A stretch of DNA of 64,000 bases, taken from the NCBI GenBank assembly GCA_035390125.1, contig DAOOTD010000001.1, positions 116,003 through 180,002 on the forward strand, read 5' to 3'. A program made the translations under genes and the position numbers. Of this stretch, positions 11,003-59,450 are shown in pieces. Numbering within the stretch: the first letter of the stretch is position 1; the number at the start of each line of letters is the position of its first letter. The notes beneath the pieces are model-generated. The model was not told the origin of the DNA and searched no databases. It saw only the letters and a program-made list of their open reading frames with translations. This DNA is from Candidatus Moraniibacteriota bacterium (lineage in GTDB: Bacteria; Patescibacteriota; Minisyncoccia; Moranbacterales; GWC2-37-73).

Positions 11003-11551
11003 ATGGAAGTTGTTGGCAGTCCCAGACGGAAGGGCAGAGAAAAGGCGTTTAATCTTTTGGAAGAAAATATCGCTGTCATGTTGGTTGATATGCAGGAGGA
11101 TTTTGTTAAGCATTTGAGAAGAGGAGAAGCTGACCGTATAATTCCCAACCAGCTGGCAATCCTCAAGCGGTGCCGCGAACTCAGCATCCCGGTAGTTGTC
11201 CTGGAATTGAGAGTCAAGGAATTCGGGAAGACCATCAAAATCCTCATGGATGAAATTTCCAAAAATCCATCCAAATGGGTAATCGAAAAGGATTTCGACG
11301 ATGGCTTTTACCTGACAAACCTTGATTCATCCCTGAAATATTTAAATATTAAAAAAATATTTATAATGGGGATAAACGCGGATTTTTGCGTAAGGGATAC
11401 TGCCAGGACTGCGATCAAGCTGGGGTACAAAATAGTAACCAGTGGGCATGTCATTGCGGGCCAACCAGATCACAGCAAAAACAACAGCATCATCTGGTTC
11501 GCGAACAATGGCAGTTGCGTCAGCAACATCGCCAGGTTTGTGGGAAAATAA
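11003..11551 (+). CDS. Isochorismatase-family cysteine hydrolase
   Basis: GINADFCVRDTARTA catalytic-Cys motif and overall isochorismatase fold length. Confidence 0.75.
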   Translation: MEVVGSPRRKGREKAFNLLEENIAVMLVDMQEDFVKHLRRGEADRIIPNQLAILKRCRELSIPVVVLELRVKEFGKTIKILMDEISKNPSKWVIEKDFDDGFYLTNLDSSLKYLNIKKIFIMGINADFCVRDTARTAIKLGYKIVTSGHVIAGQPDHSKNNSIIWFANNGSCVSNIARFVGK

Positions 11552-26159: not shown

Positions 26160-26564
26160 ATGAACAACGCATACAATTGGTATTCAACTTTAATAAAGCC
26201 ATCCTGGTCTCCGCCCAGCTGGATTTTCGGTCCCGTCTGGACAGTTTTATATATCATCATAGCGTTCACATTCGGGACGGTTTTTTTGAAAACTTTCACC
26301 GGCAAATTGCCTTGGATGGTGGCTTTGCCCTTTGCGCTCAATCTGGTTTTCAATTTTGCTTTCACTCCTTTACAGTTCGGACTCAAAAATAACTATCTGG
26401 CTGCGGGCGACATTCTGCTGGTTTTGGGAACTCTTATTTGGGCGCTGATCGCTATCTGGCCGCATTATCGCTGGATTGTCTATGCTAATGTTCCTTATTT
26501 TCTCTGGGTTTCTTTTGCTACAGTCTTGCAGCTGACAATAACTTATCTGAATTTAGGCAAATAA
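26160..26564 (+). CDS. tspO: TspO/MBR (tryptophan-rich sensory protein) family
   Basis: WYSTLIKPSWSPPSWIFGPVWTVLY is the N-terminal TspO signature. 5 TM helices. Confidence 0.8.
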   Translation: MNNAYNWYSTLIKPSWSPPSWIFGPVWTVLYIIIAFTFGTVFLKTFTGKLPWMVALPFALNLVFNFAFTPLQFGLKNNYLAAGDILLVLGTLIWALIAIWPHYRWIVYANVPYFLWVSFATVLQLTITYLNLGK

Positions 26565-26576
26565 TTCTATCTAATT

Positions 26577-26921
26577 ATGCGGGTTTGGGACATACATCCA
26601 AAACATCTTTGCCGGAAACACCTTTTGGCGGAACACAGGGAACTTCATGGTCTTTGGAATATTCTGACCAAGCACGGCGGAAAAGGCGGATATTCCCGCC
26701 ATCCGGAAACGCTCCGATGGGTCGGCAAACAGAAGGCGCTTTTTGAAAGGCACGAGACCCTGATCCGGGAATTTTTGCGGCGCGGCTATCATCATCATTC
26801 TCCCTTGGACAAAAAACTGGCTGTCGGACAAGGCGGACAAAAAGTTTTCATCAACACCATTGCGGAGCAGAAAATAATTCTCCGCAAGAAACCCTGTGAC
26901 TGCTTCCTGCATCTCAAATAA
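26577..26921 (+). CDS. Pyrimidine-dimer DNA glycosylase (T4 endonuclease V/DenV-like)
   Basis: MRVWDIHPKHLCRKHLLAEHRELHGLW parallels the T4 endoV N-terminal catalytic region (HLMAEYREL). Confidence 0.7.
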   Translation: MRVWDIHPKHLCRKHLLAEHRELHGLWNILTKHGGKGGYSRHPETLRWVGKQKALFERHETLIREFLRRGYHHHSPLDKKLAVGQGGQKVFINTIAEQKIILRKKPCDCFLHLK

Positions 26922-53926: not shown

Positions 53927-53962
53927 AAAGGGCGGTCAGTTCATTTGAACTTCCCGCCCTTT
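53927..53962 (-). terminator. Rho-independent terminator for the 53980..54471 gene
   Basis: AAAGGGCGG-loop-CCGCCCTTT with a T-run on the minus strand. Confidence 0.6.
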
Positions 53963-53979: not shown

Positions 53980-54471
53980 TTATTTCCGTCTTCCTATGAA
54001 GAACGCAATTATAATAAAAGCGCCAATCATAGCAAGGACGAAGTAGAATAAATCTACTAATTTCCCCGCTATCTTATTTATCGACCGGCCCTGCTTTATT
54101 ACAGTTCCGGCAGTCGTGTTGTACGCGCCAGTCAGGTTGGATAACCAACCCTCATGTCTGTCTATTTTAACCGACAGATCCTTTAGCTGGCCGTCGACTT
54201 TCGCCTCGATATCGTTGGAAACTTCTTTTTGCGCTTCCAACTCCCCATTTATTCTGGCGAATTGACTATTTGTCGACTTTTTAAGATTAGTGACTTCAGT
54301 TTTCAGCTTTCTGAAGTCAGCAGGCGAAACCTCGGCCTCTGGAGGCGGAGGAGCTTCATATTGCGGACCTGCTATCACCTGGCGCTCTCCGTTAATCGTT
54401 ACGGCTTGTCCCATAGGAACAAACCCCACTACAACTGCAATGGCCACTAAGGCCAGAAAAGTCTTTTTCAT
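53980..54471 (-). CDS. Secreted coiled-coil protein with C-terminal TM anchor
   Basis: N-terminal signal/TM. PPPPEAE linker. C-terminal hydrophobic helix plus RRK. Confidence 0.5.
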   Translation of the reverse strand: MKKTFLALVAIAVVVGFVPMGQAVTINGERQVIAGPQYEAPPPPEAEVSPADFRKLKTEVTNLKKSTNSQFARINGELEAQKEVSNDIEAKVDGQLKDLSVKIDRHEGWLSNLTGAYNTTAGTVIKQGRSINKIAGKLVDLFYFVLAMIGAFIIIAFFIGRRK

Positions 54472-54533
54472 TTTTTCCTCCTCTTTATGTATTGAGTTCG
54501 GGCGAGCTTCCGAAGAAGCTCACCCGGTTAGTG

Positions 54534-55907
54534 TTACAGTTGCGGGACTTTCTCAACCCGCTTCTCCTTCGCAAACCGGTCGGCCGCATCCGGTCCATAA
54601 AGAACATCAATGCAACCTGCCCATAAGAAATAATCTTGGGCAATCAGCCGATCCGCTTCCGCTTGATTGGCACGAATATCATGCCCACGGAAGTAATTGC
54701 GTTCCGCGATCTTAAACTGTTCGATCGCCGAGTTGAGATATCGTTTATCTCCTGTACACTGGTACAGGTCAACATACGCTTCTGCCAACTTGGAGCGCAA
54801 CTGGAGGTTATTTAAGCACCATCTGGTGCACTCTTTGATACGCTGTTTCAACTCTTCAATCCGAGTAAAAATACTGCTCGGATCGCAAGCTTTCACTTGC
54901 GGTGCCGGAGCTGCCGGAGGAGGAACGACCTTAGGCTCAGGTTTCGGCGCCGGAGGCGGAGGGGGCGTACAAACATCAGGTTGGTACCCGACATTCGCAT
55001 ACGCTACCACCTTAACTTGGTATGCCACTTCTGTAAGGGAAAAGGCATTGCCGGTAACGGCTCCTAAAGAGCCTGACCCAGCACCTTTTCCGTCCACGCC
55101 GGAGCCAGTGAAACCGATTCCTAAACTGGAACCGGAATTATGCCTGTCAACCACAGAGTCCCAGTAAATTGCTACGTTAGTGGAACCGGTTTCTTCGACG
55201 GCCTGTAAAACCGTCTTAGCCAATACTTCATCTACTGGCCAGTTCCAGTCGCCAACGCCTTGGTAAACACCCAGTCTCCTAACTGAAGCGTTAGGGGCTA
55301 CATTTATAACTTTAATGATAGTGTTATCATCAATGCGATTATTGATTCGGCTACGTACCGAACCTTTAACTTTTTGAGAAGTCATCGCATTCCATATACT
55401 CCCGCGACCATCCATTAGCCGACCTGAATCGGCCATGGTTTTCAGCTCACCGTAGGTGAATTGGCTATAGTCTGGATCACAGACAACGCCTTTCCAACCC
55501 TTGGGCACTTCGGACGTCGGAGCGCCCACGAAGGCACTCAGTAACGGGGCAACTATGTGATTCGGCGCCTCGTTATTAATCAACATAGAGCTACTGTTAG
55601 CTCTGCTGTCGTTCCTGTTCATGTTCAGGTTGTCGTTCCTGTTCATGTTCAGGTTGTCGTTCCTGTTCATGTTCAGGTTGTCGTTCCTGTTGTTGATATT
55701 ATTTTGGTTATTGAGGTTATTAGCGTTGTTATTGCTAATATCCCCCACATTCGCACTGGCGTCGCCGCCAGTAGCACTGGCATCACCGCCGGTAGCGGTG
55801 GCGCGATTGTCATTCTCGAGTTCAATTTCGATGTCATCTGCGAACGCGAAGTTCGCAGACAGTACCATAATCACCGCGGCCAAAATGGCCAGAGCTTTTT
55901 TCTTCAT
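54534..55907 (-). CDS. Secreted repeat protein, paralog family A (N-terminal ATGGxASATGGxASA module, NRNDNLNM tandem repeats, Pro-rich linkers)
   Basis: Signal peptide. FADDIEIELENDNRATATGGDASATGGDASANVGDI shared with 56251 and 58643. SD AAGGAGGA. Confidence 0.55.
   Translation of the reverse strand: MKKKALAILAAVIMVLSANFAFADDIEIELENDNRATATGGDASATGGDASANVGDISNNNANNLNNQNNINNRNDNLNMNRNDNLNMNRNDNLNMNRNDSRANSSSMLINNEAPNHIVAPLLSAFVGAPTSEVPKGWKGVVCDPDYSQFTYGELKTMADSGRLMDGRGSIWNAMTSQKVKGSVRSRINNRIDDNTIIKVINVAPNASVRRLGVYQGVGDWNWPVDEVLAKTVLQAVEETGSTNVAIYWDSVVDRHNSGSSLGIGFTGSGVDGKGAGSGSLGAVTGNAFSLTEVAYQVKVVAYANVGYQPDVCTPPPPPAPKPEPKVVPPPAAPAPQVKACDPSSIFTRIEELKQRIKECTRWCLNNLQLRSKLAEAYVDLYQCTGDKRYLNSAIEQFKIAERNYFRGHDIRANQAEADRLIAQDYFLWAGCIDVLYGPDAADRFAKEKRVEKVPQL
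55608..55697. repeat. 24-bp tandem repeat x ~3.5 (gtcgttcctgttcatgttcaggtt) encoding (NRNDNLNM)n on the minus strand
   Basis: Read directly from the sequence. Confidence 0.8.
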
Positions 55908-56108
55908 GATTCCTCCTTGGCCTTTCGGGCCTTTAAATATGCTATTAAGTTGTGAAAGATCTTATGTAATTTATGCCGGAGCATATCTTACATATACCAT
56001 TATTTATATTTTTACAAGACTCCAAATCTTTATTATTACTTTTTTATGATTTGTGAAGTCCTGATTTAAATATAAACTTGTTTTCTAGGTACTAATTTAG
56101 AACATTAT

Positions 56109-56137
56109 AGTCTATCATATAATTAGGCTTTTGTCAA
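56109..56137 (-). promoter_or_regulatory. Promoter (minus strand) CTTGACAAAA-17-TAGACT for the 54534..55907 gene
   Basis: One of four near-identical promoter modules in this locus. Confidence 0.5.
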
Positions 56138-56250
56138 GGGGGTGGCTATAAATGGCTTATATTTGGCTATTATGGCTAAATCCCTATAAAGGAGGAGACT
56201 CAATGCTCTTTCAATGAGATTGAGCCTCCATTAACTTTCAAATATCTTAA

Positions 56251-57177
56251 TTAAATGAAATTAATTAAATATTTTTTTACACCAAATGAAGTGGCTGCTA
56301 GAGATATAACTGCAAGTCCGGCTAAAACATTGGTACCAGTTCCCGTGTTAGGTGCTTTTTTTTCACCAACGATAACCCTTGTTTTTCCGATTACATTGTG
56401 ATTCTCATCATATATATATTTGTATTTATATACATATGTTATTTTTCCATCATGACCATCGCGGCCATCTGTTCCATCATGTCCGTCATGACCGTCTGTT
56501 CCATCATGTCCGTCGTGACCATCTTCGCCGTCCTCCCCATCATGGCCATCATGACCCGGATCATCTATGTCTACATCAATCTCAGTATCAGTTCCAGTGG
56601 TTGAAGTTCCACCTGTTGTGGTTGAAGTTCCACCTGTGGCAGTGCTTGTAACTCCGGAAACACTGGTTGTGCTTGTGCTTGAAATCGTAGAAGCAGAATT
56701 TACAGTTGAAGTTGAAGAATTCATGCTGAAATTGTCGCTGTATGAAGTGCTGTCACTATAGCTAGAGTTTCCACTATTGTCATAGCTATGATCGGATCCA
56801 TGGTTGTCATAATTATCATGATCATGGCAACCCTCGCCTGAACGGTGGCAATAAGCTGAGGAATCACTATCATTGTTGTTCGTGTTTGAATTACTGTTCG
56901 TGTTTGAATTGTAATTCGTGTTTGAACTTATGTTAGTGTTTCTATTACTGATTGAATTGGAATTGTTTACAGTGTTGCTATTGCTGTTAGTGATATCACC
57001 AACAGATGCAGTGGCACTTCCGCCAGTGGCAGTGGCACTTCCGCCAGTTGATTCCGATTCATTTTCGTTATCTATGTTTATTTTAATGTCTGCAAACGCC
57101 ATATTGTTGGCAGCATAGAAAACGACTGCAGATATAACCGCTGATACTACGATAAAAATTATATTCTTCTTTGTCAT
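56251..57177 (-). CDS. Secreted surface protein, paralog family A, with (Gly-X-Asp)12 collagen-like His-rich repeat and C-terminal APNTG sorting-signal-like motif + TM + KKY
   Basis: Signal peptide. ADIKINIDNENESESTGGSATATGGSATASVGDI. Asn/Ser/Thr-rich. DPGHDGHDGEDGEDGHDGHDGTDGHDGHDGTDGRDGHDG. C-terminus KAPNTGTGTNVLAGLAVISLAATSFGVKKY. Confidence 0.6.
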   Translation of the reverse strand: MTKKNIIFIVVSAVISAVVFYAANNMAFADIKINIDNENESESTGGSATATGGSATASVGDITNSNSNTVNNSNSISNRNTNISSNTNYNSNTNSNSNTNNNDSDSSAYCHRSGEGCHDHDNYDNHGSDHSYDNSGNSSYSDSTSYSDNFSMNSSTSTVNSASTISSTSTTSVSGVTSTATGGTSTTTGGTSTTGTDTEIDVDIDDPGHDGHDGEDGEDGHDGHDGTDGHDGHDGTDGRDGHDGKITYVYKYKYIYDENHNVIGKTRVIVGEKKAPNTGTGTNVLAGLAVISLAATSFGVKKYLINFI

Positions 57178-57271
57178 ATATTTGGCCTTTTAGAGCCACG
57201 CAAGGCAAGGATTATTCCTATTTTGCGCCTTAAATTAAAAATAAATTAATTATTAAATTCTAAAACATTAG

Positions 57272-57300
57272 ATATTATCATAATATATTAATTTTGTCAA
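57272..57300 (-). promoter_or_regulatory. Promoter (minus strand) TTTGACAAAA-17-TAATAT for the 56251..57177 gene
   Basis: Conserved module. Confidence 0.5.
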
Positions 57301-57305
57301 ATCTA

Positions 57306-58157
57306 TTATTTCACCAATTCTGTCTTGATAATCAGCCTATTATAGGTTGTTCCAATCGGCCAGCAGGTCGACAAGGTTAGGACCGGACCATTTGCCGGAG
57401 CAAATATTCTTTCATCATCTGGAGAAGTGATAAATTTATCAGACACTCTGTATTGGTAGATAATAACTCTTCCATTTGCCTGGATGGTTTTAGCAACTAT
57501 AATATCCCCTATTTCCAAATCATTTAAATTTTTAAAGATATGATTGTAGTCGCCTTTTGCCCATAAATAATTACTTGAATGGCCGGAGACAACTGAATTT
57601 CCATTTTGTCCGAAAGAAGCAGTTTTCGGATAATGGTTTATTCCGTTTTCAAGGTCTTTCAACATGTCATCTTCCTTATCGCTTTTTGACCAGACTACTG
57701 GAGCAGCAATATTTATCTTAGAAATTTTTATTTCAACAAATGGTTTTGCTTCTCCCGGCGCATCCGGATCATATCCGTTTATTATTTCCTGCTTATCAGA
57801 ATATGCATCTCCATCAGTATCAGAGTTAAGAGGATTTGTACCGTGGACGTATTCCAAGTAGTTTGGAAGTTTGTCTTTGTCAGGATCATCATCCAGTCCG
57901 CTATTAGAATCGTTTAGTCCATTGCGGTTTTTCCATTCACTGTATGTTTCAATCGAAAAAGTTGTACTGCCCAAGCGGGTGCTTATGTCATTATTTTTGG
58001 CCACACTGGTAGCTTCTTTTTCACCATCAGTTACGATTGAATTTTTATTCGGGCTAAAATCAAGGTTTAGGATATAAAACAGAACAATAAAAATAACCAG
58101 AAAAAGAATCACTGACAATAGAAACTTTTTTAAATATTTTTTAATTTTTTCAGACAT
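57306..58157 (-). CDS. Sortase (transpeptidase) with N-terminal TM and Asp-rich putative Ca-binding repeats
   Basis: Catalytic TLSTCWP (TLxTC), His in VVSGHSSN, Arg in TTYNRLI. DTDGDAYSD / DDDPDKD Asp-rich segments. Confidence 0.8.
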   Translation of the reverse strand: MSEKIKKYLKKFLLSVILFLVIFIVLFYILNLDFSPNKNSIVTDGEKEATSVAKNNDISTRLGSTTFSIETYSEWKNRNGLNDSNSGLDDDPDKDKLPNYLEYVHGTNPLNSDTDGDAYSDKQEIINGYDPDAPGEAKPFVEIKISKINIAAPVVWSKSDKEDDMLKDLENGINHYPKTASFGQNGNSVVSGHSSNYLWAKGDYNHIFKNLNDLEIGDIIVAKTIQANGRVIIYQYRVSDKFITSPDDERIFAPANGPVLTLSTCWPIGTTYNRLIIKTELVK

Positions 58158-58194
58158 TGTTTTTAGATTATTGGATATTAAATGATAACTGCAT

Positions 58195-58223
58195 AGTCTA
58201 GCAGAAAATCAATATTTTGTCAA
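58195..58223 (-). promoter_or_regulatory. Promoter (minus strand) CTTGACAAAA-17-TAGACT for the sortase gene
   Basis: Conserved module. Confidence 0.5.
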
Positions 58224-58334
58224 GTATTTAGCCATTTTGGCTTTATTTAAAGCCAAAATAAAAGAATACGGTTTTTATTAGAAGCAAAAAGACCCAATAT
58301 CCTTATGGAAATTGGGTCTTCGCTGAATTTTATT

Positions 58335-58619
58335 TTAGTTTAGTATTTTCTTGCTTGCATTGGTTGCGGAATATAACTTTTCCATTGTTCGGTCTGCCAA
58401 ATACCTTTTAATTTTTTCTATTTTCCTTTCAGAAACCCCTGCATTTTTTTGAGCCTCCTCCATAACCTCCAAAAGATTATTTACTGCCAAAATTGCCCTT
58501 TCATGCTCATCTCTTATTCCCTTTTCTTTTCCACTCACATAAATAGAGTGGATTATAGGAAATACCGTCAAGATGAGTGCAATGAACAACATTATTATGA
58601 CATTATTTTGAGTTTCCAT
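58335..58619 (-). CDS. Small membrane-anchored hypothetical protein
   Basis: N-terminal TM. 94 aa. A hairpin AGACCCAAT...ATTGGGTCT lies downstream. Confidence 0.4.
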   Translation of the reverse strand: METQNNVIIMLFIALILTVFPIIHSIYVSGKEKGIRDEHERAILAVNNLLEVMEEAQKNAGVSERKIEKIKRYLADRTMEKLYSATNASKKILN

Positions 58620-58642
58620 ATCACCATGGGCTTAAAAAATAT

Positions 58643-59380
58643 TTAGCAACTAATGGGTAAATATTTTTTTATTCCGGTTATAATAGTCAACAGAGACATG
58701 ATTGAAATTACTGATAAAGCAAAAGCATTGCTTCCAGTTGCAGGCACTTTCCAATAGTGTCTGTGCCCGTCCCTATCAAATGTGAAATAGTGTCTGTGCC
58801 CGTCCCTGTCAATAGTATAATGATGCTCACGTCCATCACTATCTATGTCTATGTGGACATCTGAATCTTGATCAGTATAGGAAGTTCCGCCTGTTGTAGT
58901 TGAGGTTCCGCCTGTAGAAGTGCTTGAAACACCGGAAACCTGGCTTGTGCTTGAGCTCGAAGTTGAAGAACTAGAATTTACACTTGAACTTGAAGAATTT
59001 ATGCTAGTACTATTGCTATATGAGGTGCTTCTGCTGCAATTAGAACATGTGCTGTTGCTGTTATCTGAGTCATCATTGGAATTATTATTGGAGTTATAAT
59101 TTGTATTGGAATTATAATTAGTGTTGGAATTGATATTAACATTCCTGTTTGTGATTGAACTGGAGTTACTTACACTGTTACTATTGCTGTTGGTAATATT
59201 GCCAATAGAAGCACTGGCGCTTCCCCCTGTTGCACTGGCGCTTCCCCCTGTTGATTCTGATTCATTTTCATTGTCTATATGTATATGCGTATCTGCAAAT
59301 ACAATATCTGCAGTGCAAAACAAGGCAACGGCTAAAAAAGCTATACATGCGATATAAATTACATTTTTCTTATTTTTCAT
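58643..59380 (-). CDS. Secreted surface protein, paralog family A, with His-rich DRDGHRHY repeats and C-terminal VPATG sorting-signal-like motif + TM + KKY
   Basis: Signal peptide. ADTHIHIDNENESESTGGSASATGGSASASIGNI. HHYTIDRDGHRHYFTFDRDGHRHYWKVPATGSNAFALSVISIMSLLTIITGIKKY. Confidence 0.6.
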   Translation of the reverse strand: MKNKKNVIYIACIAFLAVALFCTADIVFADTHIHIDNENESESTGGSASATGGSASASIGNITNSNSNSVSNSSSITNRNVNINSNTNYNSNTNYNSNNNSNDDSDNSNSTCSNCSRSTSYSNSTSINSSSSSVNSSSSTSSSSTSQVSGVSSTSTGGTSTTTGGTSYTDQDSDVHIDIDSDGREHHYTIDRDGHRHYFTFDRDGHRHYWKVPATGSNAFALSVISIMSLLTIITGIKKYLPISC

Positions 59381-59421
59381 ATGTTTAATAAATGAATTTA
59401 GTTACCTTATTAGGATTGAAT

Positions 59422-59450
59422 AGGCTATCATAAAGGCCTGTTTTTGTCAA
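59422..59450 (-). promoter_or_regulatory. Promoter (minus strand) CTTGACAAAA-17-TAGCCT for the 58643..59380 gene
   Basis: Conserved module with a weaker -10. Confidence 0.45.

What the first reader, a model, noticed from the sequence alone, without database searches (positions are those of the whole stretch)
54534..59450. Sortase-centred surface-protein locus: three paralogous secreted proteins with a shared ATGGxASATGGxASA N-module, His-rich and collagen-like repeats, non-canonical xPxTG sorting signals and four duplicated promoters
A TLxTC sortase (57306..58157, with Asp-rich Ca-binding-like repeats) is flanked by two paralogs. Each ends in [K/W][A/V]P[N/A]TG, then a hydrophobic helix, then KKY, which is the layout of a cell-wall sorting signal but not LPXTG. 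A third paralog (54534..55907) shares the N-terminal module after the signal peptide, F-A-D-x-I-x-I-D/E-N-E/D-N ... ATGG-S/D-AS x2. Each copy carries an internal 15-bp tandem duplication but has no sorting signal. All are Asn/Ser/Thr-rich with His-rich blocks (CHRSGEGCHDHDNYDNHGSDHSYDN; DRDGHRHY x2), suggestive of metal binding. Each of the four transcription units is preceded by the same promoter, CTTGACAAAA-17-TA[G/A][A/C][C/T]T, which implies module duplication. GC is higher than the flanks. This looks like a lineage-specific, sortase-dependent adhesin or metal-scavenging surface array.
Basis: partly seen in the sequence, partly recalled or inferred. Interest (0 to 1): 0.75.

Follow-up and report, generated by a model that had tools for sequence, protein, structure and literature searches.

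The report
Sortase surface-protein module of Moranbacteria
This is a real sortase locus from an uncultivated, ultra-small Moranbacteria bacterium; it belongs to a conserved four-gene surface module in which two wall-anchored low-complexity proteins sit beside a secreted protein that copies their N-terminal segment and carries a domain swapped between near-identical strains.

Summary
The window comes from Candidatus Moranbacteria (candidate phyla radiation).

**Sortase and substrates.** The sortase has an intact His-Cys-Arg triad. It resembles class D most but passes no class cut-off. In 53 related loci, the adjacent gene ends in [K/R]-x-L-P-A-T-G, a hydrophobic helix and a basic tail. P, T and G are invariant or nearly so. 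The window's VPATG (C) and APNTG (B) are therefore first-position variants of an ordinary LPXTG signal.

**Protein A.** B and C are true paralogs. A (457 aa) shares only the N-terminal module. A belongs to an unannotated family of 193 clusters. It lies downstream of the sortase in 36 loci, followed by a membrane coiled-coil partner.

**New observations.**
- A's N-module tracks its own genome's anchored protein (permutation p ≤ 1e-4), but codons differ, so this is not recent gene conversion.
- A's central domain is 35% identical between strains whose neighbouring proteins are 95-98% identical.
- A and its partner are GC-rich in 36 of 36 loci.
- A covarying hairpin separates the two genes.

**Limits.** Docking of A onto the anchored proteins is inferred. 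Metal scavenging and promoter duplication are unsupported.

The parts
59422..59450 (-). Promoter-like site upstream of C: TTGACA-17-TAGCCT, with TG before the -10 element
58643..59380 (-). C, 245 aa. Wall-anchored low-complexity protein: signal peptide; strand DTHIHIDNEN; TGGSASA x2; Asn-rich stretch; CSNC; Ser/Thr-rich stretch; TGGTSTT x2; DVHIDIDSD; His-rich DRDGHRHY x2; sorting signal
58733..58747 (-). VPATG sorting motif of C (residues 212-216), followed by a hydrophobic segment and KKY
59211..59253 (-). 21-bp x2 tandem duplication in C, encoding TGGSASA x2
58335..58619 (-). 94-aa protein with one transmembrane helix and a charged helix. Found only here and in sister strain L085. Co-transcribed with C (23-nt gap)
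58283..58324 (-). Intrinsic terminator hairpin with a U-run after the 94-aa gene (-22 kcal/mol, z -6.1)
58195..58223 (-). Promoter-like site upstream of the sortase: TTGACA-17-TAGACT
57306..58157 (-). Sortase, 283 aa. N-terminal membrane anchor, two TSP3-like Asp-rich repeats, catalytic domain with H193, C265 (TLSTC) and R274
57759..57893 (-). Two TSP3-like DxDxD...E motifs in the sortase (about aa 89-133), between the anchor and the catalytic domain
57272..57300 (-). Promoter-like site upstream of B (TTGACA-17-TAATAT). It starts 5 nt after the sortase stop codon, with no terminator between the two genes
56251..57177 (-). B, 308 aa. Paralog of C, with an added His-rich CHRSGEGCHDHD block and (G-H/E/T-D)13 triplets
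56341..56355 (-). APNTG sorting motif of B (residues 275-279), followed by a hydrophobic segment and KKY
56445..56553 (-). 9-bp/27-bp tandem array encoding the G-x-D triplets of B (marginal Pfam Collagen hit)
57008..57048 (-). 21-bp x2 duplication in B (TGGSATA x2). A second 21-bp x2 unit lies at 56597-56637 (TGGTSTT x2)
56194..56229 (-). Terminator-like hairpin after B (-21 kcal/mol, z -4.5; weak U-run)
56109..56137 (-). Promoter-like site upstream of A (TTGACA-17-TAGACT), about 200 nt before the ATG
54534..55907 (-). A, 457 aa. Secreted, with no sorting signal. Member of an unannotated family that lies downstream of the sortase in 36 fetched loci
55557..55853 (-). N-module of A (aa 19-117): DDIEIELENDN, TGGDASA x2, Asn-rich stretch with a 24-bp x3.5 repeat (NRNDNLNM). 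Predicted disordered. Co-varies with the anchored proteins
54969..55556 (-). Variable central alpha/beta domain of A (aa 118-313), with a conserved Gly-rich hairpin. It is 35% identical in sister strain L085
54537..54887 (-). [not shown]
54499..54526 (-). Hairpin between A and its partner gene: 12-bp GC-rich stem, UUCG loop, no U-run. Conserved with covariation across Moranbacteria loci
53980..54471 (-). Partner, 163 aa. Signal peptide, conserved VTINGERQV, Pro-rich stretch, coiled coil, C-terminal transmembrane helix and RRK. GC-rich like A
53927..53962 (-). Intrinsic terminator after the partner gene (-24.1 kcal/mol, z -6.0, U-run)

Best explanation
The locus is one copy of a cell-surface module conserved across Candidatus Moranbacteria.

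**Step 1, supported by sequence and comparative evidence; no biochemistry was done.** A membrane-anchored cysteine transpeptidase of the sortase family sits beside its own substrates. It is distantly class D-like and carries two TSP3-like Asp-rich repeats. C, and in this lineage its paralog B, are exported through a signal peptide and held by a C-terminal helix and basic tail. They carry [V/A]-P-x-T-G where the family consensus is LPATG. By analogy with characterised sortases, the enzyme cuts between T and G and joins the Thr to the peptidoglycan precursor.

**Step 2, shown as architecture.** The anchored proteins are not globular adhesins. They are short, low-complexity and mirror-symmetric. 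The layout is: amphipathic D-I-x-I-x-I-D-N strand, TGGSAxA unit(s), polar repeat, often a CxxC pair, polar repeat, TGGxSxT unit(s), acidic (E/D)-I-D-V-D-I-D strand, Asp/His-rich segment, sorting motif. This fits a hairpin-like stalk held together by polar side chains.

**Step 3, inferred, about 30% likely.** Protein A has no anchor. It starts with a copy of the stalk's N-terminal half. I propose that it docks non-covalently on the stalk by taking the place of, or adding to, that half. Its conserved TPR-like C-terminal domain may bind the membrane-anchored coiled-coil partner encoded next to it.

**Step 4, pattern shown, meaning inferred.** A's central domain is the exposed, exchangeable part. 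It has been replaced between near-identical strains. This is the pattern expected of a surface determinant under diversifying selection, for example host attachment or phage avoidance in an episymbiont.
For: **Sortase**
- Pfam Sortase 79 bits. H193, C265 and R274 are conserved in 22 homologs. There are at least 346 homologs, with source-given names among the top hits limited to Moranbacteria, Parcubacteria group or Patescibacteria group.
- The nearest solved relative is 4d70 (58.8 bits), then 2ln7.

**Substrates**
- In 53 sortase-adjacent proteins from related loci the motif is L39/T7/V4/A2 at position 1, P 53/53, A 40/53 at position 3, T 53/53 and G 52/53. A helix and basic tail follow.
- More distant sortase relatives sit next to SdrD_B/SpaA-domain proteins with the same kind of signal.

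**Mirror layout**
- The layout is visible in alignment A5.
- Counts of xTGGxA units on the N and C sides correlate (Spearman 0.79).

**The A family and its link to the anchored proteins**
- A-family genes lie downstream of the sortase in 36 loci, with a partner gene. The family has 193 clusters at 50% identity among 1.84 billion representatives, and 10 tested members have no Pfam domain.
- A is present downstream in 19 of 21 loci with a TGG-type substrate and in 7 of 24 without one (p = 5e-5).
- A's N-module is most similar to its own genome's substrate in 17 of 30 genomes and ranks in the top 3 in 25 of 30 (permutation p <= 1e-4).
- That similarity beats the median orthologous A N-module in 28 of 30 genomes. 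Unit counts match (Spearman 0.75).
- Only 265 of 733 identical residues use the same codon. GC3 is 0.67 in A's N-module against 0.31-0.33 in B and C.

**Variable domain**
- Sister strain L085: sortase 98%, HtrA 97%, Wzz-like 95%, A N-module 80%, A central domain 35%, A C-terminal domain 95%, partner 65%.
- The window's central domain is closest to L084 and L014 (45% and 44%), whose sortases are 72% (partial match, L084) and 56% (L014) identical.

**C-terminal domain**
Against: - No expression, proteomic or biochemical data exist for any member.
- The organism is uncultivated, and its peptidoglycan chemistry is unknown to me.
- Pfam Gram_pos_anchor does not match B or C, and position 1 of their motifs is not Leu.
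- The co-variation tests are not corrected for phylogeny. The sequences are low-complexity, which inflates alignment scores.
- Two genomes (L009, L052) show no N-module similarity.
- AlphaFold gives no confident structure for the N-module (pLDDT below 35). A model of the anchored proteins could not be made. The hairpin and docking ideas therefore rest on sequence pattern alone.
- The strain difference comes from metagenome contigs. A chimeric assembly is unlikely, because the gene stays in frame and both allele types recur, but it is not excluded.
Confidence: 0.6

Rival explanations
1. This is an ordinary sortase locus and nothing more. B and C are wall-anchored low-complexity coat or spacer proteins. 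A is an unrelated secreted protein. Its N-terminal resemblance is inherited from an old domain duplication plus shared low-complexity composition, with no physical interaction.
For: The N-modules are compositionally simple and predicted disordered. BLAST with composition adjustment finds only a 39-78 residue match. The statistics are not corrected for phylogeny.
Against: An old duplication followed by independent drift predicts that A N-modules resemble their orthologs more than the neighbouring paralog. The opposite holds in 28 of 30 genomes against the median ortholog, and only 0-3 orthologs beat the paralog in most genomes. Specific non-repeat strings and unit counts match within genomes. 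A occurs with TGG-type substrates and is absent beside Ala/Ser-rich ones.
Confidence: 0.2
2. The shared N-module is a targeting or processing tag, not a docking element. Both proteins would be recognised by the same lineage-specific factor, and all three would co-evolve. Candidates are a glycosyltransferase from the adjacent sugar-nucleotide cluster, a maturation protease such as the neighbouring HtrA, or a secretion site.
For: The module sits directly after the signal peptide in both proteins. The locus is flanked by HtrA on one side and by Wzz-like, rml and epimerase genes on the other in all close relatives. The modules are Ser/Thr/Asn-rich, as O- or N-glycosylated regions often are.
Against: A recognition tag would be expected to keep a defined motif. 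Here whole repeat types change (SQ, Asn-rich, TGG x1 or x2) while staying matched. The same units recur mirrored in the C-terminal half of the anchored protein, which a leader-type tag does not explain. HtrA is well conserved (97% in L085, 42-73% elsewhere) and shows no obvious matching variability.
Confidence: 0.15
3. The match is concerted evolution by gene conversion. The N-modules of A and of the anchored proteins are homogenised by recombination within the locus, so the match says nothing about function.
For: The genes lie within about 4 kb in the same orientation and contain short tandem repeats that favour recombination. Within-genome similarity exceeds most between-genome similarity.
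Against: Only 36% of identical residues use identical codons (265 of 733). In the window, GC3 is 0.67 in the N-module of A and 0.31-0.33 in B and C. Nucleotide identity over the aligned modules is 34-67%. Recent conversion would leave long identical DNA tracts, and none are seen.
Confidence: 0.05
4. This is the first reader's reading: a metal-binding or metal-scavenging surface array, in which the His-rich, Asp-rich and CxxC segments of B and C capture metal ions at the cell surface.
For: The His-rich blocks are present. About half of the related substrates have exactly two or four Cys in Cx2-4C pairs. The 60 residues before the sorting motif hold up to 10 His and 22 Asp. The sortase carries TSP3-like Asp repeats of a kind that bind Ca2+ in characterised proteins (Ca2+ binding is from general knowledge).
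Against: His content is not conserved (0-10 per 60 residues). No metal transporter or metallophore gene is in the neighbourhood. No metal-binding family matched. Acidic segments next to the wall are equally explained by Ca2+-dependent stiffening or charge.
Confidence: 0.08
5. A is a pore-forming or membrane-inserting protein. Its conserved Gly-rich amphipathic beta-hairpin in the central domain would assemble into an oligomeric beta-barrel in a host membrane, in the manner of beta-pore-forming toxins or TraT.
For: The only conserved stretch in the otherwise variable central domain is a long Gly/Ser/Ala-rich hairpin (invariant G263, G265, S269, G282). Foldseek's weak top hits include TraT decamers and the membrane-inserted forms of LukGH, NetB and CDTb.
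Confidence: 0.04

Closest known systems
Housekeeping sortase with LPXTG cell-wall-anchored proteins of Gram-positive bacteria (the S. aureus SrtA / protein A paradigm)
   Same: Membrane-anchored cysteine transpeptidase with a His-Cys-Arg triad and TLxTC. Substrates have a signal peptide, a P-x-T-G pentapeptide, a hydrophobic segment and a basic tail. The family consensus LPATG is a standard LPXTG.
   Different: No class model passes its cut-off; class A is not among the matches and class D is best. The enzyme carries two TSP3-like repeats. It is encoded with one dedicated low-complexity substrate, not serving many dispersed substrates as far as can be seen in 64 kb. The host is a candidate-phyla-radiation bacterium. 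The window copies have V or A at motif position 1.
Class D sortases encoded next to their substrates (Clostridium perfringens SrtD, PDB 4d70; Bacillus anthracis SrtC, PDB 2ln7). The species and class assignment of these entries is from my own knowledge.
   Same: These are the best sequence matches among solved structures (58.8 and 36.8 bits) and among NCBIfam class models. The sortase gene is adjacent to a dedicated substrate.
   Different: Scores are far below the class D cut-offs (62-64 bits against 140-165). The substrate motif ends in TG, not the TA typical of Bacillus class D (from memory). The extra TSP3-like region is absent from those enzymes.
Clostridioides difficile SrtB and its (S/P)PxTG substrates (from my own knowledge)
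   Same: A sortase that accepts a residue other than Leu at the first motif position while P, T and G are kept, as with VPATG, APNTG, TPATG and APVTG here.
   Different: No close sequence relationship was found. Here Leu is still the commonest residue (39 of 53), so the variants look like tolerated drift, not a distinct specificity.
Streptococcal collagen-like LPXTG proteins Scl1/Scl2
   Same: LPXTG-anchored proteins with Gly-X-Y triplets next to the wall-proximal region. They give weak NCBIfam hits (22 and 20 bits) and a marginal Pfam Collagen hit for B.
   Different: Scores are far below the cut-offs (325 and 400). There are only 13 triplets, all G-x-D without proline. The array is absent from C and from most homologs; L014 has GDD triplets. 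It may be an acidic metal-binding repeat and not a triple helix.
Sortase-anchored scaffold that displays unanchored partners by non-covalent docking (for example the LPXTG-anchored cohesin protein ScaE of the Ruminococcus flavefaciens cellulosome; from my own knowledge)
   Same: It works like the model proposed here: one protein is covalently fixed to the wall by a sortase, and a second protein with no anchor carries a matching module and the functional domain.
   Different: No cohesin or dockerin domains are present. The proposed docking element is a short, low-complexity, genome-specific segment. The interaction is inferred from co-variation only.

Membership tests
Sortase family (Pfam PF04203, peptidase C60) | Match to the family profile above the curated cut-off | tested here: met
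   79 bits against a cut-off of 26.6. TIGR01076 sortase_fam 39.8 against 39.35.
Sortase family (Pfam PF04203, peptidase C60) | Catalytic His, Cys (TLxTC) and Arg | tested here: met
   SGH193SS, TLSTC265 and R274 are conserved in the 22-sequence alignment A1. The only exception at Cys and Arg is one truncated sequence.
Sortase family (Pfam PF04203, peptidase C60) | Transpeptidase activity on the sorting motif | not testable with these tools
   Needs an enzyme assay with VPATG, APNTG and LPATG peptides.
Class D sortase (NCBIfam NF033746, NF058671) | Score above the curated class cut-off | tested here: not met
   61.9 against 165 and 64.4 against 140. These are the best of all classes but far below threshold.
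Class D sortase (NCBIfam NF033746, NF058671) | LPxTA-type substrate motif (NF058671 is described as LPxTATN-specific) | tested here: not met
   Adjacent substrates end in P-x-T-G in 52 of 53 cases.
Class E sortase (NF033747) | Score above the class cut-off, and the LAxTG motif (motif from my own knowledge) | tested here: not met
   48.3 against 160. The second motif position is Pro in 53 of 53.
Class C (pilus-assembling) sortase system | Class C profile match, and pilin subunits each carrying a sorting signal | tested here: not met
   NF033745 43.5 against 160. A has no sorting signal. B and C have no pilin or SpaA-type domain.
LPXTG-type cell-wall sorting signal | Pentapeptide conserved in orthologs, about 30-35 residues from the C-terminus | tested here: met
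   P 53/53, T 53/53, G 52/53. VPATG lies at residues 212-216 of 245, and APNTG at 275-279 of 308.
LPXTG-type cell-wall sorting signal | Leu at position 1 | tested here: not met
   Val in C and Ala in B. Leu occurs in 39 of 53 homologs, and V, T and A recur in subclades.
LPXTG-type cell-wall sorting signal | Hydrophobic segment followed by a positively charged tail, plus an N-terminal signal peptide | tested here: met
   The regular-expression scan required all of these parts. Signal peptides ending AFA or FAD are seen directly.
LPXTG-type cell-wall sorting signal | Match to Pfam Gram_pos_anchor (PF00746) | tested here: not met
   No hit for B or C at E <= 0.1. A related substrate (L065) gives 18.2 bits against 20.
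Collagen triple-helix repeat (PF01391) | Profile match above the cut-off | tested here: met
   B gives 29.5 bits against 27.2, which is marginal. C gives no hit.
Collagen triple-helix repeat (PF01391) | Formation of a trimeric triple helix | not testable with these tools
   There are 13 G-x-D triplets without Pro. This needs circular dichroism or an experimental structure.
Bacterial TSP3 repeat (PF18884) | Profile match above the cut-off | tested here: inconclusive
   The window copy gives 19.4 bits against 25. PF18884 is precomputed for most homologs. D91, D93, D113, D115, D117, D121 and E124 are invariant.
TPR-like helical repeat (C-terminal domain of A) | Structural similarity of a confident model to TPR proteins | tested here: met
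   [not shown]
TPR-like helical repeat (C-terminal domain of A) | Sequence match to a TPR profile | tested here: not met
   No Pfam or NCBIfam TPR hit.

The most novel reading that the evidence does not exclude
Moranbacteria may use a two-part, non-covalent display system. A sortase-anchored polar 'zipper' stalk (B and C) would hold an unanchored protein (A) through a genome-specific N-terminal segment that mimics one half of the stalk. The exposed central domain of A would be exchanged between strains as a cassette and would act as the determinant for host recognition or phage avoidance in these episymbionts. The conserved hairpin after A would set a high ratio of A to its membrane partner.
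Probability: 0.25. Interest if true: 0.8.

Novelty: new variant of a known kind. Interest (0 to 1): 0.55.

Why it matters
Candidate-phyla-radiation bacteria are thought to live attached to other microbes. Apart from type IV pili in Saccharibacteria, almost nothing is known about the surface molecules involved.

This locus defines a conserved, compact and highly patterned surface module in one large CPR lineage. It contains a dedicated sortase, an anchored stalk protein, a matched secreted protein with a strain-variable domain, and a membrane partner. It offers concrete molecules and concrete predictions: peptide cleavage, N-module binding, and allele turnover.

If the docking idea holds, it would be a new way of attaching proteins to a sortase-anchored scaffold. 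It would also give a handle on host specificity in uncultivated bacteria. If it does not hold, the locus is still a clean example of an LPXTG system outside the classical Gram-positive phyla, with natural variation at motif position 1.

Tried and rejected
- **Homolog search with C**: no hit at E <= 0.001, not even itself, presumably because of composition filtering. Relatives were recovered instead through sortase-linked loci.
- **Word-based search with A**: only 14 hits. tblastn on the fetched loci and the exhaustive profile search showed the family is larger.
- **Rfam** found nothing in the region.
- **Literature** searches found only the general statement that more than half of CPR genomes encode a sortase family (PMC6744442). 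Nothing was found on this module.
- **Promoter duplication**: rejected, because the flanks do not align.
- **Recent horizontal transfer as the cause of A's high GC**: rejected as a one-off event, because A and its partner are GC-richer than their surroundings in 36 of 36 loci.
- **Codon bias of highly expressed genes**: rejected, because the ribosomal protein genes in the window have GC3 of 0.22-0.30.
- **Recent gene conversion** as the cause of the N-module match: rejected.
- **Sortase-assembled pilus**: rejected, because there is no class C signal and no sorting signal on A.

Full report
**What is in the sequence**

All genes of the region lie on the minus strand. In the direction of transcription they are:
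- C (58643..59380, 245 aa)
- a 94-aa membrane protein (58335..58619)
- the sortase (57306..58157, 283 aa)
- B (56251..57177, 308 aa)
- A (54534..55907, 457 aa)
- a 163-aa protein (53980..54471)

HtrA, DUF5656 and ClpB lie upstream. A Wzz-like protein and dTDP-sugar genes lie downstream.

An identical sortase is on record for Candidatus Moranbacteria. The same locus sits on a 278-kb JGI contig.

The quoted motifs are all present.

Four sites of the form TTGACAAAA-17-TAnnnT, each with TG before the -10 element, precede C, the sortase, B and A. The window holds 13 TTGACA-N15-19-TAnnnT sites against 4.5 expected. The three exact CTTGACAAAA matches are all in this locus.

The sequences around the hexamers do not align. 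These are therefore strong consensus promoters and not copies of one module.

Folding shows terminators after the 94-aa gene, after B and after the 163-aa gene. There is none between the sortase and B.

The tandem duplication has a 21-bp period, not 15 bp. B also has a mirrored second copy. A has a 24-bp x3.5 repeat, and a 96%-identical variant (P0121) lacks 16 residues (two repeat units) at this repeat.

**The sortase**

It matches Pfam Sortase at 79 bits. In an alignment of 22 homologs the His, Cys (TLSTC) and Arg are conserved.

No NCBIfam class model reaches its cut-off. Class D is best at 62-64 bits against 140-165, followed by E, C and F.

A profile search of the PDB puts 4d70 and 2ln7 first. 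From my own knowledge, both are class D enzymes.

Between the membrane anchor and the catalytic domain lie two Asp-rich motifs with invariant Asp and Glu positions. Pfam TSP3_bac scores 19.4 here, below its cut-off of 25, but it is precomputed for most homologs.

The family has at least 346 members. Where a source names them, it names Moranbacteria, Parcubacteria or Patescibacteria.

**Are the C-terminal motifs sorting signals?**

A scan of one genome per species returned 76 loci. About 63 of them encode a clear relative of the sortase.

A pattern search found such a protein next to the sortase in nearly every locus. It required a P-x-T-[GASN] motif, a hydrophobic stretch and a basic tail within the last 50 residues. 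The gene almost always ends 50-100 bp upstream of the sortase.

Over 53 such proteins the motif is:
- K or R (45 of 53) two residues before the motif
- L 39, T 7, V 4, A 2 at position 1
- P 53 of 53
- A 40 of 53 at position 3
- T 53 of 53
- G 52 of 53
- then mostly S-G

It also shows that the family motif is ordinary LPATG.

C's VPATG-SN matches its closest relatives (L012, L014, L050, L083: TPATG-SN or VPATG-SN). B's APNTG is the outlier, but it is kept in the sister strain L085.

More distant sortase relatives of about 330 aa sit beside proteins with SdrD_B, SpaA and DUF11 domains and [ST][TA]P[AV]TG signals. The enzyme family therefore serves classical surface proteins too.

Pfam Gram_pos_anchor does not match B or C.

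**What the anchored proteins look like**

They are 115-270 aa and have no Pfam domain. They share a layout that is clearest in alignment A5:
- signal peptide ending AFA
- an alternating strand such as D-V-D-I-D-I-N-N
- one or two xTGGxA units
- a polar repeat (SQ in many genomes, Asn- or Ser/Thr-rich here)
- often a Cx2-4C pair
- a second polar repeat
- one or two xTGGxS/A units
- an acidic alternating strand such as E-I-D-V-D-V-D
- an Asp-rich segment with variable His, Asn and Lys
- a short basic stretch
- the sorting motif

The number of TGG units on the two sides is correlated (Spearman 0.79; mostly 0+0, 1+1 or 2+2). This mirror symmetry suggests, but does not prove, a hairpin in which the two halves pair.

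About half of the proteins have exactly two or four Cys. His content before the motif ranges from 0 to 10 per 60 residues, and Asp from 1 to 22.

B and C are paralogs. Their DNA is 72-79% identical in two blocks. B adds a His-rich block and 13 G-x-D triplets, which give a marginal Collagen hit.

A second copy of the anchored gene also occurs in L014, L031 and L032, so copy number varies.

**Protein A**

A shares with B and C only the segment after the signal peptide: 59% identity over 39 residues, or 44% over 78. The rest of A consists of:
- a central alpha/beta domain
- a Pro-rich linker flanked by Cys
- a helical C-terminal domain with invariant Cys at 341, 360, 364 and 384

The word-based search found 14 homologs. 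tblastn shows the C-terminal domain downstream of the sortase in 36 of the fetched loci, usually followed by a membrane coiled-coil protein.

The exhaustive profile search found 193 clusters at E <= 0.001 among 1.84 billion representatives. Ten of them have no Pfam domain.

The conserved order is ClpB, DUF5656, HtrA, anchored protein, sortase, A, partner, Wzz-like, rml.

**Three properties of A stand out**

First, its N-module follows the anchored protein of the same genome.
- Among 30 genomes, the own-genome pair scores highest in 17 and within the top three in 25 (mean score 109 against 56; permutation p <= 1e-4).
- In 28 of 30 genomes the own-genome pair scores above the median comparison with orthologous A N-modules. 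In most genomes only 0-3 orthologs, from sister genomes, do better.
- Repeat type and TGG unit number match (Spearman 0.75).
- A is present beside 19 of 21 TGG-type substrates but beside only 7 of 24 others. It is absent beside the Ala/Ser-rich type.
- Only 36% of identical residues use the same codon. In the window, GC3 is 0.67 in A's module against 0.31-0.33 in B and C. The match is therefore kept at the protein level and is not due to recent gene conversion.
- These tests are not corrected for phylogeny, and the sequences are low-complexity. Both points weaken the numbers but not the direction.

Second, the central domain is exchangeable.
- Contig L085 is 91-94% identical in DNA on both sides. 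Its sortase, HtrA and Wzz-like proteins are 98%, 97% and 95% identical.
- Yet its A central domain is 35% identical and cannot be aligned by blastn. Its A N-module is 80% identical, its A C-terminal domain 95% and its partner 65%.
- The window's central domain is closest to those of L084 and L014 (45% and 44%), whose sortases are 72% (a partial, 115-residue match) and 56% identical.
- This is a mosaic pattern of cassette replacement.

Third, A and its partner are richer in GC than the rest of their locus in 36 of 36 loci (mean +8.9 points). The ribosomal protein genes in the window have low GC3. I have no tested explanation for this. Frequent exchange of this gene pair among lineages would fit both the GC and the mosaicism.

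**A conserved RNA hairpin**

Between A and its partner lies a 12-bp GC-rich hairpin with a UUCG loop and no U-run (-24 kcal/mol, z -6.7).

A hairpin of this kind (MFE <= -15 kcal/mol) follows the A-family gene in 29 of 36 loci. In an alignment of 26 of these regions:
- 9 of 11 pairs show changes on both sides
- 97.9% of cells pair
- no shuffle and no slid register comes close

The 26 loci were chosen because they fold well. That choice biases the pairing percentage but not the compensatory changes.

By analogy with stem-loops after major-subunit genes in fimbrial operons (my own knowledge), the hairpin would stabilise or partly terminate the A transcript. A would then be made in excess over its partner.

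**Most likely mechanism**

Steps 1 and 2 are well supported by sequence and comparison.
- Step 1: the sortase anchors C and B to the wall through a variant LPXTG signal.
- Step 2: the anchored proteins are short, polar and mirror-symmetric.

Steps 3 and 4 are inference.
- Step 3: A, which has no anchor, would dock on the stalk through its matching N-module, and perhaps on the membrane partner through its TPR-like domain.
- Step 4: A's central domain would be the exposed, strain-variable determinant.

I put about 0.85 on steps 1-2, about 0.3 on docking, and about 0.4 on the central domain being under diversifying selection.

The rivals are: no interaction at all, a shared targeting or modification tag, gene conversion, a metal-binding array, and a pore-former. 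Each is listed with its evidence in the Rival explanations section.

**Comparison with known systems, and novelty**

The sortase and sorting-signal part is a member of a known kind. It falls in an unclassified branch nearest class D.

The general presence of a sortase family in more than half of CPR genomes has been noted (PMC6744442). I found no description of the following features in the searchable literature:
- the four-gene module
- the mirror-symmetric anchored proteins
- the A family
- the N-module co-variation
- the conserved hairpin

I rate it a new variant of a known kind. It is of moderate interest as it stands, and of high interest if the docking and variable-determinant reading proves true.

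Noticed in passing
window 54499-54526 (minus strand); also after the A-family gene in L009, L010, L013, L014, L017, L019, L020, L022, L023, L027, L029-L032, L034, L036, L043-L045, L050, L067, L083-L086: A GC-rich hairpin of 11-12 bp with a tetraloop and no U-run lies between the A-family gene and its partner gene. Across 26 loci, 9 of 11 pairs show compensatory changes and 97.9% of cells pair. It has no Rfam match. It is probably a transcript-stabilising or attenuating element that sets the ratio of A to partner.
   Followed up: yes
window 53980-55907; A-family genes in 36 fetched loci: A and the downstream partner gene are GC-richer than the rest of the locus in 36 of 36 loci (mean +8.9 points). 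A stays near 0.45-0.55 GC while the surrounding locus GC ranges from 0.34 to 0.50. Ribosomal protein genes in the window have low GC3, so this is not the usual bias of highly expressed genes. The cause is unknown.
   Followed up: partly
window 58335-58619: A 94-aa protein with one transmembrane helix and a charged helix is inserted between C and the sortase. It was found only here and in sister strain L085 (97% identical). In other loci the anchored gene directly abuts the sortase.
   Followed up: partly
window 55607-55691: The 24-bp x3.5 perfect repeat in A (NRNDNLNM) varies in copy number. The 96%-identical protein P0121 lacks two copies (441 against 457 aa).
   Followed up: partly
window 55908-56137: The promoter-like site for A lies about 200 nt upstream of its start codon, giving a long leader. 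The other three promoters lie roughly 40-95 nt from their start codons. No Rfam family matches the leader.
   Followed up: no
window 53980-54471; partners in L083, L084, L085, L050: The mature N-terminus of the partner protein (A-VTINGERQV) is conserved in the genomes whose A C-terminal domain ends in EKRVEKVPQL. L086 has a different partner N-terminus and a different A C-terminus (ERIPTGFAR). This hints that the TPR-like domain of A binds the partner.
   Followed up: no
L052-L065 (sortase relatives of about 330 aa): A more distant branch of the same sortase family is adjacent to larger substrates with SdrD_B, SpaA, DUF11 or DUF4215 domains. Their signals are [ST][TA]P[AV]TG or LPKTG. All but L052 lack the A-family gene downstream.
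   Followed up: partly
L009, L017, L029, L035, L050, L055, L066 (titled 'uncultured Bdellovibrionales') and L041 (titled 'Bathyarchaeia archaeon'): Contigs that carry a typical Moranbacteria sortase locus are labelled with unrelated taxa in their public record titles. This probably reflects mis-binning or mislabelling.
   Followed up: no
window 11003-11551 and 26160-26921: A few other small ORFs in the window also have high GC3 (0.50-0.54) against a background near 0.3. They were not examined.
   Followed up: no
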